This document shows, in pieces, positions 1,854-17,007 of a stretch of DNA of 26,738 nt; the stretch's first letter is position 1, and each line of letters opens with the position of its first letter. The translations under genes were made by a program, and so were the position numbers. Under the pieces are notes generated by a model, which did no database searches, was not told the origin of the DNA, and saw nothing but the letters and a program-made list of their open reading frames with translations. Source of the stretch: an archaeon (GTDB lineage: Archaea > Iainarchaeota > Iainarchaeia > Iainarchaeales > Iainarchaeaceae). The stretch is taken from positions 1-26,738 of the forward strand of contig DATDXA010000050.1 in the NCBI GenBank assembly GCA_035289485.1, in the 5' to 3' direction.

Positions 1854-1984
1854 ACACCCCAGAAAGCCAAAAAGATACCTTTAAAAAGGTCGGGAGCATC
1901 AATTTGTATGCTAAGAGAAAAAGGATTCACTTTTGAATATCGGATTCTCAATAAAGCTAAAGATGAAAATAGAGGTGAAAATAG

Positions 1985-2077
1985 ATGATACAGCTACAGT
2001 ACTGTAAGGAATGCCACAATGCGTTCCAGGTGTCCAGCAACATTGCAGATGCCGAGAAACATATCTGCGAAAAGTAG
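1985..2077 (+). CDS. 30-aa zinc-finger-like microprotein (CxxC...HxC)
   Basis: MIQLQYCKECHNAFQVSSNIADAEKHICEK*; SD GAGGTG at 1972-1977. Below the ORF-track cutoff. Confidence 0.6.
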   Translation: MIQLQYCKECHNAFQVSSNIADAEKHICEK

Positions 2078-2246
2078 GCGCAGAATTATGCTTTTTGCCC
2101 GTTAGGGCAAAAATACAAAGGAATTTTCCGGCCACGCACAAAAGAGGGCCGGAATGAATTCTCTTGTAAATTCTGATTTTCCAATAAAGGAAAATAAAAC
2201 TGCGCGCCCCGCAAAACACAACTACACGAGTGCGGGGCTGATGCAG
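2078..2246. other. Densely structured intergenic region (four hairpins; candidate ncRNA or bidirectional terminator)
   Basis: Stems: TTTTTGCCC/GGGCAAAAA (2092-2113); TTCCGGCC/GGCCGGAA (2126-2154) extended by GAATT/AATTC and TACAA/TTGTA; ATTTTCC/GGAAAAT (2176-2195); GCCCCGCA/TGCGGGGC (2206-2238); enclosing CAGAATT/AATTCTG (2081-2175). Confidence 0.5.
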
Positions 2247-2268
2247 GGATTTTTATGAATTTTAAAAG

Positions 2269-2320
2269 CCTCTTTCTTTTTCGTAAACGTTTTTCTTTCT
2301 CGGCACGAGAAAGAAAAAGG
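2269..2320 (-). repeat. Intrastrand-triplex-type repeat, copy A (2 nt after the tRNA 3' end)
   Basis: Minus strand: CCTTTTTCTTTCTCG-TGC-CGAGAAAGAAAAA-CGTTTACG-AAAAAGAAAGAGG. Hairpin plus mirror-repeated third tract; similar to copies at 2395 and 14715. Confidence 0.8.
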
Positions 2321-2322
2321 TT

Positions 2323-2489
2323 TGGGAGCGCCCGGATTTGAACCGGGGTCGCAGAGTCGTTCGACAACATTGCTTTTAGCAAACCAGGGGATTGCACTTT
2401 TCTTTTTCCCCGGGGTTTTTCTTTTCTGCAAGAAAAGAAAAAGGCCGTGCCCGAACCCTGAGTCCTGGACCAGGCTAGACTACGCTCCC
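2323..2489 (-). tRNA. tRNA-Pro(CGG) with a 92-nt intron at canonical position 37/38 (intron 2358-2449)
   Basis: Acceptor stem GGGAGCG/CGCTCCC plus discriminator A; D-arm GTCT-AGCCTGGTCCA-GGAC; anticodon stem CAGGG/CTCTG with loop TT-CGG-G^A; T-arm CCCGG-TTCAAAT-CCGGG. Bulge-helix-bulge: TTCG/CGAA helix, 3-nt bulges GG^C and CG^A, outer helix ACGGC/GTTGT. Mature length 75 nt; CCA not encoded. Confidence 0.95.
2395..2444 (-). repeat. Intrastrand-triplex-type repeat, copy C (inside the tRNA-Pro intron)
   Basis: Minus strand: CCTTTTTCTTTTCT-TGC-AGAAAAGAAAAA-CCCCGGGG-AAAAAGAAAAGTG. Confidence 0.8.
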
Positions 2490-2543
2490 ATCTTCACCTT
2501 CGCGGAAAAAAGCGCGAGAGGTACCACAAGACAAAATTTGCAT

Positions 2544-2557
2544 GAAAAGCTTAAATA
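2544..2557 (+). promoter_or_regulatory. Candidate BRE+TATA promoter upstream of pyrG
   Basis: GAAAAGCTTAAATA; the same 13-mer GAAAAGCTTAAAT recurs at 9887 upstream of the TA operon. Confidence 0.5.
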
Positions 2558-2620
2558 CCCAAACGAACTAACATTTAGTCTGTTTTTAGAAATTAATTTC
2601 AATCATTTGGGGGTTGCAAT

Positions 2621-4330
2621 TTGGACGAAAAGTTCCTTGCGGAGATAAGCGATAAGTCCAGTGGCGAGCGCTTTACCGATGTCCCGCAGGGCTATGTAAA
2701 GGGCAAAACCAAGTATGTAATCATCACCGGCTCAGTTATGAGCGGCATTGGAAAGGGCATTTTCTCATCTTCGCTTGGAAAGACGCTTCAGGACCGCGGG
2801 CTTAAGGTTGCGCCAATAAAGGTCGAAGCCTATTTGAATATTGATTCAGGAACCCTAAGCCCATACAGGCACGGCGAAGTGTTCGTTCTTGATGATGGCA
2901 CTGAAACCGACATGGACCTTGGTTCATACGAGAGAATGCTTGATACAAACCTCACAAAGGACAATTTCACAACGCATGGGCAGATTTACAACCGCATAAT
3001 CGGCATGGAAAGGGCGGGATTCTACCAAGGAAGGGATGTGCAGTACATCCCGCACGTCACGGGCGAAACAAAACTGGTTCTAAGAAACCTTGCAATGAAA
3101 TCAAAGGCCGATATTGTGCTGATTGAAATCGGCGGAACTGTCGGGGACTATGAGAATCTTTTCGCAATGGAGAGCGTGCGCGAGCTTATTTATGAAGAGG
3201 GGGAGCAGAACTGCTGCCTTGTAAACCTCACATACATCCTCGAGCCGCACCACCTTGGGGAATTCAAAAGCAAGGCGGCGCAGCTTGGATTGCGCCACCT
3301 CATGAGCTTGGGGCTGCAGCCGGATGTTGTGGTGTGCAGAAGCGAGAGGGCGATTACAAATTCAGTGAAAGAAAAAATTTCCATGAACGCAAATGTCCCG
3401 CTGGAAAAAGTGTTCAACACATACGATGTTGGAAACATTTACGAGCTGCCGCTCTTCTATAGGGAGCAGGGAGTTGACAGCGCAATCCTTGATGTTTTGG
3501 GCTGGAATGAAAAGTACAAGGCAAATGGCAGCAAAAGCCTCAAGGACTGGACCGCAAAGAATGTTGTGGAATTTGAAAAGGAAATAACGATTGGCATTGC
3601 CGGAAAATATACGGGAACAAGCGACACATACATTAGCATTGTAAAGGCGCTAGAGCACTGCTCCGCGGCGCTCAAAACTAAAGTTAACATAAAGTGGATT
3701 GAGGCAACGGAAATAGAAAATGGCAAGAAGAAAATTGAGGAGGAAATGAAAGGGGTTGAGGGGGTAATAATTCCTGGAGGCTTTGGAACGCGCGGAATTG
3801 AGGGGAAAGTTAAGTGCGCGAACTATGTGCGCGTGAACAATGTGCCATTCCTTGGGATTTGCTATGGGTTTCAGATGGCTGTTGTTGAATTCGCACGCAA
3901 TGTGTGCGGAATAAAAAACGCGAGCACTGAAGAAGTGAAAAAGGACCCCCAGAACAATGTGATTTGCATCCTTCCCGAGCAGGAAGAAGTTAATGGGCTT
4001 GGCGGCACGCTGCGGCTTGGCGGATTTGATCTGAAAGTGAAGAAAGGGACCCTTGCTTACGAACTTTACGGGAAAAAAGAAACCGTGCGCGAGAGATTCA
4101 GGCACCGCTTCAATGTGAATACCAAATTCATAGAAGCGCTTGAAAAGAACGGGCTTGTATTCTCCGGAATGGCGCCTGAGAAGAAAATAATGCAAATACT
4201 TGAGCTCCCGAATCACCCTTATTTTATCGGCACGCAATACCACGCCGAATTCACTTCAAGGCCGCTAAAGCCCAATCCATTGTACTTTGGGCTTGTGAAG
4301 GCCGCGGTAAAGAAGAAGTTCGGGAAATAA
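2621..4330 (+). CDS. pyrG: CTP synthase
   Basis: KYVIITGSVMSGIGKG, HGEVFVLDDGTETDMDLGSYER, EIGGTVGD; glutaminase motifs PGGFG, GICYG (catalytic Cys) and QYHAE. TTG start preceded by GGGGT. Confidence 0.97.
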   Translation: MDEKFLAEISDKSSGERFTDVPQGYVKGKTKYVIITGSVMSGIGKGIFSSSLGKTLQDRGLKVAPIKVEAYLNIDSGTLSPYRHGEVFVLDDGTETDMDLGSYERMLDTNLTKDNFTTHGQIYNRIIGMERAGFYQGRDVQYIPHVTGETKLVLRNLAMKSKADIVLIEIGGTVGDYENLFAMESVRELIYEEGEQNCCLVNLTYILEPHHLGEFKSKAAQLGLRHLMSLGLQPDVVVCRSERAITNSVKEKISMNANVPLEKVFNTYDVGNIYELPLFYREQGVDSAILDVLGWNEKYKANGSKSLKDWTAKNVVEFEKEITIGIAGKYTGTSDTYISIVKALEHCSAALKTKVNIKWIEATEIENGKKKIEEEMKGVEGVIIPGGFGTRGIEGKVKCANYVRVNNVPFLGICYGFQMAVVEFARNVCGIKNASTEEVKKDPQNNVICILPEQEEVNGLGGTLRLGGFDLKVKKGTLAYELYGKKETVRERFRHRFNVNTKFIEALEKNGLVFSGMAPEKKIMQILELPNHPYFIGTQYHAEFTSRPLKPNPLYFGLVKAAVKKKFGK

Positions 4331-14709: not shown

Positions 14710-14714
14710 AACAA

Positions 14715-14767
14715 CCTTTTTCTTTTCGTTAACACGAAAATAAAAATGTTGACGAAAAAGAAAAGTG
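14715..14767 (+). repeat. Intrastrand-triplex-type repeat, copy B (5 nt after the atpK stop)
   Basis: CCTTTTTCTTTTCG-TTAACA-CGAAAATAAAAA-TGTTGACG-AAAAAGAAAAGTG; one mismatch (T14741) against the consensus. Confidence 0.78.
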
Positions 14768-16887: not shown

Positions 16888-17007
16888 ATGGAGGAAAAGT
16901 TAAGCTGAAAATTTTGCTAAAGGATTGTGAGTTCAGTTCCATCGAGCCAGCAGGCGAAGATGGTACGCTCCCTTCCGAAGAGCATGTTCGGAAATGAGGT
17001 GAAACAG

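What the first reader, a model, noticed from the sequence alone, without database searches (positions are those of the whole stretch)
2358..2449. Long tRNA-Pro intron that is more than half repeat element
Seen: the 92-nt intron has a perfect BHB, and 50 nt of it is repeat copy C, starting at intron nt 6 at the end of the BHB outer helix. The remainder has a TTGCT-AAA-AGCAA hairpin and TCCCCTGG, partly complementary to the CCCCGGGG linker. No C/D boxes. Established: archaeal introns are excised at BHB motifs and can be ligated into circles. Inference: the element inserted into a ~42-nt ancestral intron as a neutral site, or the excised circle is a stable structured RNA carrying the element. Its U-rich tract must be read through here, arguing against it being a simple strong terminator.
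Basis: partly seen in the sequence, partly recalled or inferred. Interest (0 to 1): 0.75.

Follow-up and report, generated by a model that had tools for sequence, protein, structure and literature searches.

The report
tRNA intron built around triplex repeat
A proline tRNA gene of a tiny groundwater archaeon carries a real 92-base intron whose core is one copy of a three-armed repeat that this lineage places beside tRNA and gene ends, and relatives show the repeat is an old, conserved part of the intron, not a recent insertion.

Summary
Window 2323-2489 (minus strand) is tRNA-Pro(CGG), split after position 37 by a 92-nt intron (2358-2449) with a canonical 3-4-3 bulge-helix-bulge. Intron nt 6-55 are one copy of a repeat.

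The repeat has three arms: a pyrimidine arm, its reverse complement, and a third purine arm that mirrors the second. This is the architecture of an intrastrand triplex. The arms change together: all three agree in 41 of 54 copies, across 8 length classes.

G000 has 32 full copies. Eight abut tRNA 3' ends, 8 abut tRNA 5' ends in inverted orientation, 5 lie in tRNA introns, 1 follows 23S rRNA and 4 directly follow ORF stops inside conserved operons.

The "insertion into a 42-nt intron" reading is not supported. All 9 intron-bearing Pro(CGG) orthologues carry the element at the same place and orientation. Eight of them lie beside the same CTP-synthase gene, at 62-89% protein identity. The element's 5' flank forms the outer BHB helix.

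The read-through inference holds. A stable intron circle could not be tested, because no RNA data exist.

This scan noted the same element family earlier in another genome (e1-3793544). My literature searches found no published description of this family.

The parts
2323..2489 (-). tRNA-Pro(CGG) gene, exons plus intron
   Evidence: ARAGORN with introns; the spliced product folds as a 75-nt Pro(CGG) cloverleaf
2450..2489 (-). exon 1 (tRNA positions 1-37; anticodon CGG at 2451-2453)
2358..2449 (-). 92-nt intron at the canonical 37/38 position
2323..2357 (-). exon 2 (tRNA positions 38-73)
2452..2455 (-). 5' strand of the 4-bp central BHB helix (TTCG, tRNA positions 32-35)
2360..2363 (-). 3' strand of the central BHB helix (CGAA, intron nt 87-90)
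2444..2448 (-). 5' strand of the BHB outer helix (ACGGC); overlaps the element's conserved CAACC-type 5' flank
   Evidence: this helix covaries in 9 orthologues
2364..2368 (-). 3' strand of the BHB outer helix (GTTGT)
2431..2442 (-). element arm 1 (Y): pyrimidine arm TTTTTCTTTTCT, holding two U4 tracts
2416..2427 (-). element arm 2 (R): purine arm, reverse complement of arm 1; forms a hairpin with a 3-nt loop at 2428-2430
2408..2415 (-). palindromic linker CCCCGGGG
2397..2407 (-). element arm 3 (R3): purine arm, mirror image of arm 2 and parallel complement of arm 1
2384..2391 (-). TCCCCTGG, pairing partner of the linker
   Evidence: 5 of 200 shuffles as good
2370..2382 (-). small hairpin TTGCT-AAA-AGCAA
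2269..2322 (-). second copy of the element, same orientation, starting at the base after the tRNA's discriminator; followed by a TTTTAAAA box
14712..14767 (+). third copy in the window, 2 nt after the stop codon of the ATP synthase c-subunit gene and 57 nt before the E-subunit gene

Best explanation
SHOWN. Window 2323-2489 (minus strand) encodes a tRNA-Pro(CGG) whose spliced form folds as a normal cloverleaf. It is interrupted at 37/38 by a 92-nt intron with a canonical hBHBh' motif. The genome encodes the splicing endonuclease EndA, the ligase RtcB and RNase P RNA. The intron has three parts:
- a 5-nt 5' strand of the outer helix, which is the conserved CAACC-type flank of the repeat;
- one forward copy of a lineage-wide three-armed element: pyrimidine arm, loop, complementary purine arm, palindromic linker, mirror purine arm;
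- a 37-nt tail holding a linker-complement, a small hairpin, the 3' strand of the outer helix and the 4 nt that pair with the anticodon loop.

This element-in-intron layout is ancestral for the family. It is not a recent insertion. The three arms covary as an intrastrand triple helix would require: hairpin plus third strand on this strand, and a textbook pyrimidine-motif fold-back on the opposite strand.

INFERRED. The element is a transcribed 'boundary' module. Its hairpin side always abuts the end of an RNA unit: tRNA 3' ends, the 23S 3' end, ORF stops inside operons, tRNA 5' ends in inverted orientation, and exon ends inside introns. Its U5-C-U4 arm resembles the archaeal U-tract signal bound by aCPSF1. 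In Methanococcus such signals terminate only about 30-55% of transcripts. I therefore read the element as a leaky terminator or 3'-end structure that RNA polymerase often passes. In the intron it costs some full-length precursor. EndA then removes it with the intron at the BHB that its own flank helps to build. The intron probably persists, and may have arisen, because an element copy lying next to the end of the 5' half can be spliced out once a short complementary tail exists.
For: Gene, intron and BHB. EndA at C20:6508-6768, RtcB at C60, RNase P RNA at C2:1134-1401.

Ancestry.
- ARAGORN gives Pro(CGG) introns of 66, 76, 80, 92, 107, 123, 138, 176 and 196 nt in 9 genomes, and all carry the element right behind the 5' splice site.
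- CTP synthase lies next door in 8 of 8 intron-bearing loci from other genomes, at 62-89% protein identity.
- The BHB is kept in 9 of 9. The central helix has 4 of 4 pairs in 7 orthologues and 3 of 4 in 2. The outer helix covaries: CAACC/GGTTG, CAGCC/GGCTG, GGCC/GGCC, GACC/GGTC.
- The same layout occurs in 18 introns of 7 tRNA identities: Pro-CGG, Pro-GGG, Arg-CCG, Leu-CAA, Tyr-GTA, Ser-TGA, Ser-GGA.

Three-arm covariation.
- All three arms agree in 41 of 54 parsed copies, over 8 run-length classes. Arm 1 agrees with arm 3 in 44 of 54.
- Identity to a copy's own third arm is 0.957 against 0.812 for permuted partners (0 of 2000 permutations reach it).
- A mirror relation beats a direct-repeat relation in 40 copies, loses in 2 and ties in 12.
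- 606 of 649 aligned positions are canonical T-A-A or C-G-G triples.
- At the orthologous Pro intron the class changes in all arms together: (5,4), (4,4), (5,3,1) and (3,4,1,1).

Placement. Of 32 full copies in G000, 8 lie 3' of tRNAs, 8 lie 5' of tRNAs in inverted orientation, 5 are in introns, 1 follows 23S, 4 directly follow ORF stops and 6 lie elsewhere.

Leakiness. Copies lie between atpK and atpE, between proteasome alpha and SBDS, and 11 nt before the start codon of the gene after RpoL. One lies in the only tRNA-Tyr gene found.

Literature. Median termination efficacies of 55.5, 52.1, 43.3 and 30% for more than 2, 2, 1 and 0 U4 tracts, and two U4 tracts as the minimum for efficient aCPSF1 binding (PMC8716108, passages read). 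Internal operon terminators are common in an archaeon (PMC10450193, abstract).
Against: No RNA data exist for this organism. Transcription through the element, splicing, termination and any triplex are all inferred.

On the strand transcribed in the intron, the third arm could only form a purine-motif (A-A-U, G-G-C) triplex. From memory, that motif is poorly documented for RNA.

The fold that pairs the linker with TCCCCTGG puts arm 3 in a hairpin loop. That is hard to reconcile with arm 3 docking on the hairpin.

The relatives' loci were fetched with a query that contained the element, which biases the sample. Orthology rests on the tRNA exons and the CTP-synthase neighbour.

The two intronless Pro(CGG) genes sit at contig ends and cannot be placed.

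One orthologue (G003, 66-nt intron) has a degenerate copy and G004 is off by one A, so the constraint is not absolute.

Eight copies inverted in front of tRNAs do not fit a simple terminator role. Several of those tRNAs have divergent upstream neighbours.
Confidence: 0.55

Rival explanations
1. One reading: a mobile or recombinogenic repeat (MITE/REP-like) was inserted long ago into an ordinary 20-40-nt intron. It persists there because an intron is one of the few neutral sites in a compact genome. The three-arm fold is needed only for the element's own spread.
For: What remains of the introns after removing the element is 16-42 nt, a normal archaeal intron size.

The copy 3' of tRNA-Pro is present in some orthologous loci (G000, G005, G003, G002, G021, G008) and absent in others (G004, G001, G016, G057, G018).

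Elements sit next to short duplications of gene ends: 15 nt of the tRNA-Gln 5' end at C52, the first ~33 nt of a lumazine-synthase-like gene at C24:39734, and repeated gene tails at C29:52811 and C29:52892. Bacterial intrastrand-triplex repeats are linked to genome rearrangement (PMC4666352, abstract and sections 15-16).

Shared loops (GTTACAC, GTTGACAC) and linkers at unrelated loci imply copying.
Against: No empty intron was found among 9 orthologues.

Position and orientation are identical in 18 of 18 element-bearing introns of 7 tRNA identities.

The element's flank is part of the BHB.

Copies at tRNA-Cys, tRNA-Glu(CTC) and tRNA-Thr(TGT) leaders stay at the same site across genera.

No transposase link was found. 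Y1_Tnp occurs in 9 of 23 family genomes, and only 1 of 12 Y1 loci has an element within 1.5 kb. TnpB was not found.
Confidence: 0.2
2. The element works at the DNA level. When negatively supercoiled or single-stranded, the 55 bp extrude as a cruciform whose two strands each fold into an intrastrand triplex (H-DNA-like). This would act as a supercoil sink, a polymerase roadblock or a recombination hot spot at the borders of heavily transcribed genes. The intron copy would be such a border element that happens to be transcribed.
For: Placement is mirror-symmetric about the gene and does not follow the direction of transcription. The hairpin side always faces the tRNA or exon: forward at 3' ends, inverted at 5' ends.

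Both strands satisfy triplex rules. There is no G-U versus C-A bias that would single out one RNA strand (12 against 12).

The closest known analogues (PIT, BoxC, TMECO) are treated as DNA structures (PMC4666352).
Against: [quoted passage not shown]

A DNA role does not explain why intron copies are always forward. It also does not explain why the linker covaries with a downstream intron segment.
Confidence: 0.15
3. One reading: the excised and RtcB-circularised intron is a stable structured RNA with a function of its own, and the element is its functional core.
For: Three-arm complementarity and linker-partner pairing are maintained within the intron copies across genera. EndA and RtcB are present. 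Archaeal introns are known to circularise (established knowledge; PMC12558985 seen as a search listing only).
Against: The same element is equally conserved in leaders, trailers and operon spacers that would not be circularised.

Intron tails outside the element are poorly conserved, and intron length runs from 66 to 196 nt.

There are no RNA data.
Confidence: 0.1

Closest known systems
Canonical archaeal BHB (hBHBh') tRNA introns at position 37/38, cut by EndA and joined by RtcB
   Same: The position, the 3-4-3 bulge-helix-bulge, the flanking helices, and the presence of EndA and RtcB genes.
   Different: The intron is unusually long. Its body is a genome-wide repeat whose flank forms the outer helix. 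It carries U tracts of the kind used as archaeal terminators. The three passages I read of the review PMC4090602 mention nothing similar.
Bacterial intrastrand triplex repeats: PIT elements, BoxC and TMECO (Holder et al. 2015, PMC4666352)
   Same: The block order is the same: pyrimidine stem, loop, purine stem, loop, second purine stem. Both are multi-copy and intergenic, both have a triplex class on each strand, and both are associated with local rearrangements.
   Different: The element here is A/T-rich and not G/C-rich, archaeal, and shares no sequence similarity. Its arms are 11-16 nt against 9 nt. It is placed with base precision at tRNA, rRNA and ORF ends and inside tRNA introns, which is not reported for TMECO ('tRNA' occurs 0 times in that paper's text).
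MALAT1 / MEN-beta 3'-end triple helix followed by a tRNA-like RNase P substrate
   Same: In the inverted copies in front of 8 tRNAs, the RNA would read: U-rich strand, small stem or linker, U-rich strand, loop, A-rich strand, and then a tRNA cut by RNase P. This order allows a U-A-U / C+-G-C triple helix ending at the RNase P site. The MALAT1 layout is partly recalled and partly from the start of the PMC8457004 abstract.
   Different: The intron copy under review has the opposite orientation (one U-rich strand, two A-rich strands). There is no evidence for a stabilised upstream RNA, and several of these tRNAs have divergent neighbours.
Archaeal U-tract / aCPSF1 terminators and internal operon terminators (PMC8716108, PMC10450193)
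   Same: U5-C-U4 or U5-C-U3 lies 0-10 nt behind tRNA, rRNA and ORF ends. Copies sit inside operons where partial termination would set stoichiometry, for example after the ATP synthase c subunit.
   Different: Known terminators need no hairpin and no mirror third arm. Here the same tract also sits in introns and 5' leaders.
Models of tRNA gene disruption by mobile elements, and split tRNA genes (Sugahara et al. 2012, PMC3293823, abstract)
   Same: A tRNA 5' fragment lies next to an inserted element (C52). Introns with two inverted copies (Arg-CCG in G000, Pro-CGG in G021) have each exon flanked by mutually complementary sequence, as in split tRNA halves.
   Different: No recombinase-bearing element is involved. 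No split tRNA gene was found here.

Membership tests
Archaeal BHB tRNA intron | Interrupts a gene whose joined exons fold as a tRNA | tested here: met
   ARAGORN on the joined exons gives a 75-nt tRNA-Pro(CGG)
Archaeal BHB tRNA intron | Two 3-nt bulges separated by a 4-bp helix, with splice sites in the bulges, flanked by helices h and h' | tested here: met
   GG|C bulge, TTCG/CGAA helix, CG|A bulge; anticodon stem of 5 bp and outer helix of 5 bp with 2 G-U; kept in 9 of 9 orthologues
Archaeal BHB tRNA intron | Splicing endonuclease and ligase encoded in the genome | tested here: met
   PF01974 at C20:6508-6768, 94.9 bits; RtcB at C60, 569 bits
Archaeal BHB tRNA intron | Intron is actually excised, giving a spliced tRNA and an intron circle | not testable with these tools
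   No RNA run holds the stretch
Intrastrand triplex motif (ITxF class, PIT/TMECO architecture) | Three consecutive homopyrimidine or homopurine blocks of 8 nt or more, separated by short loops | tested here: met
   Arms of 12, 12 and 11 nt with loops of 3 and 8 nt; 54 copies parsed
Intrastrand triplex motif (ITxF class, PIT/TMECO architecture) | The third block matches the duplex so that canonical base triads can form along its length | tested here: met
   606 of 649 positions are T-A-A or C-G-G; mirror beats direct repeat in 40, loses in 2, ties in 12
Intrastrand triplex motif (ITxF class, PIT/TMECO architecture) | Sequence membership in TMECO (the G/C-rich CCCTCNCCC-type consensus) | tested here: not met
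   The arms are A/T-rich and do not resemble that consensus. The architecture is shared, but this is not the same family.
Intrastrand triplex motif (ITxF class, PIT/TMECO architecture) | Physical triplex formation (CD, NMR, melting) | not testable with these tools
   Needs oligonucleotide biophysics
MALAT1-type triple-helix 3' end with a downstream tRNA-like RNase P site | Two U-rich strands and one A-rich strand on the transcribed strand, followed directly by the RNase P substrate | tested here: not met
   The intron copy has one U-rich and two A-rich strands and is followed by the intron tail. The feature is met by sequence only for the 8 inverted copies in front of tRNAs.
REP/BIME- or MITE-like mobile repeat | Multi-copy, structured, intergenic, with presence/absence differences at orthologous sites | tested here: inconclusive
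   32 full copies. The copy 3' of tRNA-Pro is present in 6 and absent in 5 of 11 loci. The intron copy is present in 9 of 9 intron-bearing orthologues.
REP/BIME- or MITE-like mobile repeat | Cognate transposase (RAYT / Y1 HUH) flanked by the repeats | tested here: not met
   Y1_Tnp in 9 of 23 family genomes; an element within 1.5 kb at 1 of 12 Y1 loci. These are incomplete draft genomes, so the negative is weak.
Archaeal U-tract terminator | One or more U4 tracts directly behind the end of a transcription unit | tested here: met
   Arm 1 starts 0-10 nt behind 8 tRNAs, 23S rRNA and 4 ORF stops
Archaeal U-tract terminator | Transcript 3' ends map to the tract | not testable with these tools
   No RNA data
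Intron-encoded C/D box sRNA (as in tRNA-Trp introns) | C (RUGAUGA) and D (CUGA) boxes | tested here: not met
   None on either strand of the intron

The most novel reading that the evidence does not exclude
The three-armed element is a true nucleic-acid triple helix that a DPANN lineage uses as a general border device for RNA units. On its pyrimidine-rich strand it would make a MALAT1-like U-A-U helix ending exactly at the RNase P site of eight tRNAs. On the other strand it would cap 3' ends and tune termination. On this reading, tRNA introns are born when such a border module becomes trapped between the two halves of a tRNA. The two-copy introns, in which each exon is flanked by mutually complementary modules, would then be living intermediates between continuous, intron-bearing and split tRNA genes.
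Probability: 0.15. Interest if true: 0.85.

Novelty: new variant of a known kind. Interest (0 to 1): 0.66.

Why it matters
How archaeal tRNA introns arise, and why they persist, is an open question. Here the long introns that carry the element (18 seen, in 7 tRNA identities) are all built the same way. Each is built around a repeat that otherwise marks the outer ends of tRNA, rRNA and protein genes, and the repeat's flank supplies part of the splice motif. That ties intron origin to a concrete sequence element that can be tested.

The element shows clear three-way covariation, pointing to a natural triple helix in a prokaryote. It sits in transcribed places: introns, leaders and operon spacers. 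Its biophysics and its effect on termination, processing and RNA stability can therefore be measured directly.

There is also a practical point. Standard tRNA finders and Rfam missed the gene. tRNA sets of such genomes are probably under-called.

Tried and rejected
- **Default tools.** The default tRNA tool and Rfam, at gathering and at E-value thresholds, found no tRNA or other credible family at 2200-2600. Only ARAGORN with introns allowed found the gene.
- **RNA evidence.** No RNA holder is listed for window 1900-2900.
- **DNA contigs from four other metagenome runs.** They carry the identical intron. The three 'joints' that skip 103-118 nt have sides of only 21-26 nt and other letters in between. 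I take them to be other tRNA genes, not an intron-less allele.
- **First pattern search.** A degenerate pattern for the arms was mis-specified and gave only chance-level hits.
- **Promoter inside the inverted copies.** Arm 1 starts anywhere from -39 to -30 relative to the tRNA 5' end. Ordinary tRNA TATA boxes here sit tightly at about -35 to -26. TATA-like boxes also occur at variable distances upstream of the element. Rejected.
- **Which strand is the functional RNA.** T-G and C-A mismatches in the hairpin are equal, 12 against 12, and mostly reflect register shifts. Uninformative.
- **Transposase link.** Y1_Tnp and TnpB gave no association.
- **Virus-borne element.** There was 1 pattern match in the viral contig collection, inside a 1.9-Mb record. 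It has no tRNA beside it and lacks the family's flanks. I take it to be chance.
- **Earlier scan notes.** A search by sequence gave nothing. A search by place among relatives gave an unrelated hit.
- **Alternative hairpin with arm 3.** If arm 3 were selected to pair with arm 1, it would be a direct repeat of arm 2. The mirror relation wins in 40 copies, loses in 2 and ties in 12. Rejected.
- **Literature.** My searches found no description of this element or of repeat-bearing introns in this phylum: tRNA intron + DPANN + repeat; archaea / triple helix / mirror repeat / terminator; tRNA intron / BHB / transposition; Diapherotrites + tRNA + intron; intrastrand or intramolecular triplex + tRNA gene + archaea. 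Subscription journals and bioRxiv supplements were not searchable.
Full report
**1. What is there**

On the minus strand of the window lies a tRNA-Pro gene with anticodon CGG. The default tRNA tool and Rfam miss it.

The coordinates, checked base by base, are:
- exon 1 at 2450-2489;
- the intron at 2358-2449;
- exon 2 at 2323-2357.

The joined exons fold as a standard 75-nt cloverleaf.

The splice motif is canonical:
- The first bulge is G36, G37 and intron nt 1.
- A 4-bp helix pairs TTCG (tRNA positions 32-35) with CGAA (intron nt 87-90).
- The second bulge is intron nt 91-92 plus A38.
- An outer helix of 5 bp (ACGGC with GTTGT, two of them G-U) closes the motif.

The genome encodes the splicing endonuclease, RtcB ligase and RNase P RNA.

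**2. What the repeat is**

The repeat has three arms. The first is a pyrimidine arm, TTTTTCTTTTCT in this copy. After a short loop comes its reverse complement. After a palindromic 8-nt linker comes a third, purine arm that is the mirror image of the second arm. It is therefore also the parallel complement of the first. Copies share a CAACC-type 5' flank and a GTG 3' flank.

A profile search finds 32 copies in the 1.16-Mb genome that cover at least 50 of 56 model positions, plus 7 partial or variant hits. Strict three-arm 9-mers occur 105 times against 0 in each of 10 shuffles.

I parsed 54 of the 57 full-length hits, taken from this genome and from loci of relatives. The results:
- All three arms have the same first two run lengths in 41 copies, spread over 8 different classes. 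Arm 1 and arm 3 agree in 44.
- Identity between arm 1 and a copy's own arm 3 is 0.957, against 0.812 with permuted partners. None of 2000 permutations reaches the observed value.
- A mirror relation between arms 2 and 3 beats a direct-repeat relation in 40 copies, loses in 2 and ties in 12.
- 606 of 649 aligned positions are T-A-A or C-G-G triples.

Templated copying can make inverted or direct repeats but not mirror repeats. This pattern therefore points to selection for a three-stranded fold. On the strand shown, that fold would be a hairpin plus a purine third strand. On the opposite strand it would be a textbook pyrimidine-motif fold-back.

The block order matches the bacterial intrastrand-triplex repeats PIT, BoxC and TMECO (PMC4666352; abstract, sections 15 and 16 and passages read). 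Those are G/C-rich and unrelated in sequence.

**3. Where the copies sit**

The 32 full copies in this genome are distributed as follows:
- 8 start 0-3 nt behind a tRNA 3' end, on the tRNA's strand.
- 8 end 0-3 nt before a tRNA 5' end, in inverted orientation.
- 5 lie inside introns of four tRNAs: Pro-CGG, Leu-CAA, Tyr-GTA, and Arg-CCG with two inverted copies.
- 1 follows the 23S rRNA.
- 4 start within 10 nt of an ORF stop codon. These ORFs are a KaiC-like ATPase, proteasome alpha (followed by SBDS), RpoL, and the ATP synthase c subunit (followed by subunit E; window 14712-14767).
- 6 lie elsewhere.

In every tRNA-associated case the hairpin side faces the tRNA or exon and the third arm points away.

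The element occurs in 20 of 22 other genomes of the family by an element-only BLAST, and in 5 of 173 genomes of other families of the order. More diverged versions, which BLAST misses, are visible in introns of other families.

**4.

tRNA-Pro(CGG) genes were recovered from 10 other genomes.
- Eight have introns: 66, 76, 80, 107, 123, 138, 176 and 196 nt by ARAGORN's boundaries.
- All eight lie next to the same CTP-synthase gene as in the window, at 62-89% protein identity.
- Two (G008, G018) have no intron. They sit at contig ends, so their orthology cannot be checked.

Every intron-bearing orthologue carries the element in the forward orientation, starting 2-7 nt behind the 5' splice site.
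- Some hold a plain copy.
- Some hold copies with large two-hairpin inserts in the loop or linker (G001, G002, G016).
- One has a second, inverted copy abutting exon 2 (G021).
- One copy is degenerate (G003).

There is no element-free intron, and so no discrete indel. There is no gradual low-complexity growth either.

The BHB is kept in all nine. The outer helix covaries (CAACC/GGTTG, CAGCC/GGCTG, GGCC/GGCC, GACC/GGTC), and its 5' strand is the element's own flank. At this one orthologous site the arm class changes in all arms together: (5,4), (4,4), (5,3,1) and (3,4,1,1).

The same layout is seen in 18 introns of seven tRNA identities. The relatives' loci were fetched with a query containing the element, so that sample is biased. 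In the unbiased whole genome G000, 4 of 7 ARAGORN introns of 60 nt or more carry the element. None of the 7 short introns (20-33 nt) does.

**5. How it most likely works**

Shown by sequence: the intron is ancient, and the element is its conserved core and part of its splice motif.

Inferred: the element must be transcribed and passed by RNA polymerase. It lies in the only tRNA-Tyr gene found. It also lies between operon genes with no visible room for a promoter.

Its first arm is U5-C-U4, that is, two U4 tracts. It sits where element-free tRNA genes of this genome have plain T tracts.

In Methanococcus, termination at such tracts is graded and leaky. Median efficacies are 30-55%, and two U4 tracts are the minimum for efficient aCPSF1 binding (PMC8716108, passages). 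Internal operon terminators there set expression ratios (PMC10450193, abstract).

My best reading is therefore a leaky terminator or 3'-end structure that serves as a border module. The copy in the intron is removed by EndA.

What the third arm does remains open. It could form a triplex in RNA, in single-stranded DNA or in supercoiled DNA. The mirror-symmetric placement about genes, and the lack of strand bias in mismatches, keep a DNA-level role alive. The strict forward orientation in introns, and the linker covariation, favour an RNA-level constraint.

**6. Results against my reading**

- No RNA data exist.
- The inverted copies in front of tRNAs do not fit a terminator role. Several have divergent neighbours and TATA-like boxes at variable distances upstream, so they are probably part of the 5' leaders.
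- The intron fold that pairs the linker with TCCCCTGG puts arm 3 in a loop.
- Short duplications of gene ends next to elements (C52, C24:39734, C29), and presence/absence of the copy 3' of tRNA-Pro, show that copies are gained and lost. A selfish or recombinogenic nature is therefore not excluded.
- No transposase link was found.

**7. Novelty**

BHB introns, U-tract terminators and intrastrand-triplex repeats are each known. What appears new is their combination:
- an A/T-rich archaeal three-armed repeat with clear three-way covariation;
- placement with base precision at exon and gene ends;
- a role as the conserved body, and part of the splice motif, of long tRNA introns.

My literature searches found no description of it. 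The scan itself noted the same family earlier in another genome (e1-3793544). I reached the same reading independently here and tested it.

Noticed in passing
window 16942-16960 (+), and 11 other places in G000: A second repeat family, TCGAGCC-loop-GCGAAGA followed by a C-rich hairpin, about 60 nt long. There are 12 copies. Four end directly at the 5' end of a tRNA (Ile-TAT, Leu-GAG, Lys-TTT, Trp-CCA). Others, including the window copy, sit just before a gene start; the window copy is inside the ATP synthase operon. The tandem G-A pattern looks k-turn-like. Three of the four tRNAs also carry the triplex-type element at their 3' end; the fourth is at a contig end.
   Followed up: partly
G000 C5:39767-39880, C5:45679-45790, C29:53180-53292; loci L016, L017, L037: A nested module of two hairpins, each bracketed by CCTNG...CAAGG, about 55-60 nt in all. 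It replaces the linker or the loop of some element copies, including three Pro(CGG) introns of relatives. This is what makes those introns 123-196 nt long.
   Followed up: no
G000 C52:780-880 and C24:39720-39850: Short duplicated gene starts flank elements. A 15-nt copy of the tRNA-Gln 5' end lies just before an element that precedes the real tRNA-Gln. About 33 nt of the start of a lumazine-synthase-like gene are repeated on either side of another copy. Repeated gene tails at C29:52811 and C29:52892 match earlier scan notes on pilin-gene tails.
   Followed up: partly
G000 C3:40560-40760: A TATA-like box is followed by two similar ~45-nt hairpin units (CAGGTAC...GTACCTG) separated by an element copy. 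This may be a small RNA locus. Rfam has no match.
   Followed up: no
G000 upstream of tRNA-Pro(TGG) C47:6020-6100, downstream of tRNA-Ala(TGC) C43, and the tRNA-Cys intron in L026: A third recurring module (CAACAGTTTCGGCTGTTGGGT..CGAC plus a G/C hairpin) lies next to tRNA genes. In one relative it lies inside a 91-nt tRNA-Cys intron that lacks the triplex-type element.
   Followed up: no
window 2495-2560 (-): The region upstream of tRNA-Pro has a near-palindromic TATTTAAG box about 60-68 nt before the tRNA, shared with the divergent CTP-synthase gene. It also has a small CGCG hairpin with a T6 loop. If transcription starts at that box, this is another U tract that must be read through. Most other tRNAs here have TTTTAAA at about -35 to -26, which implies very short leaders.
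   Followed up: no
G000 C29:29213-29414, C43:14221-14371, C43:15118-15284, C3:45625-45730: ARAGORN calls tRNAs with introns at odd positions: Met with a 114-nt intron at position 26, Phe-AAA, Ala-TGC with an 82-nt intron at position 34, and Phe-GAA at position 33. These may be non-canonical introns or miscalls. The tRNA set of this genome needs an archaeal-mode finder.
   Followed up: no
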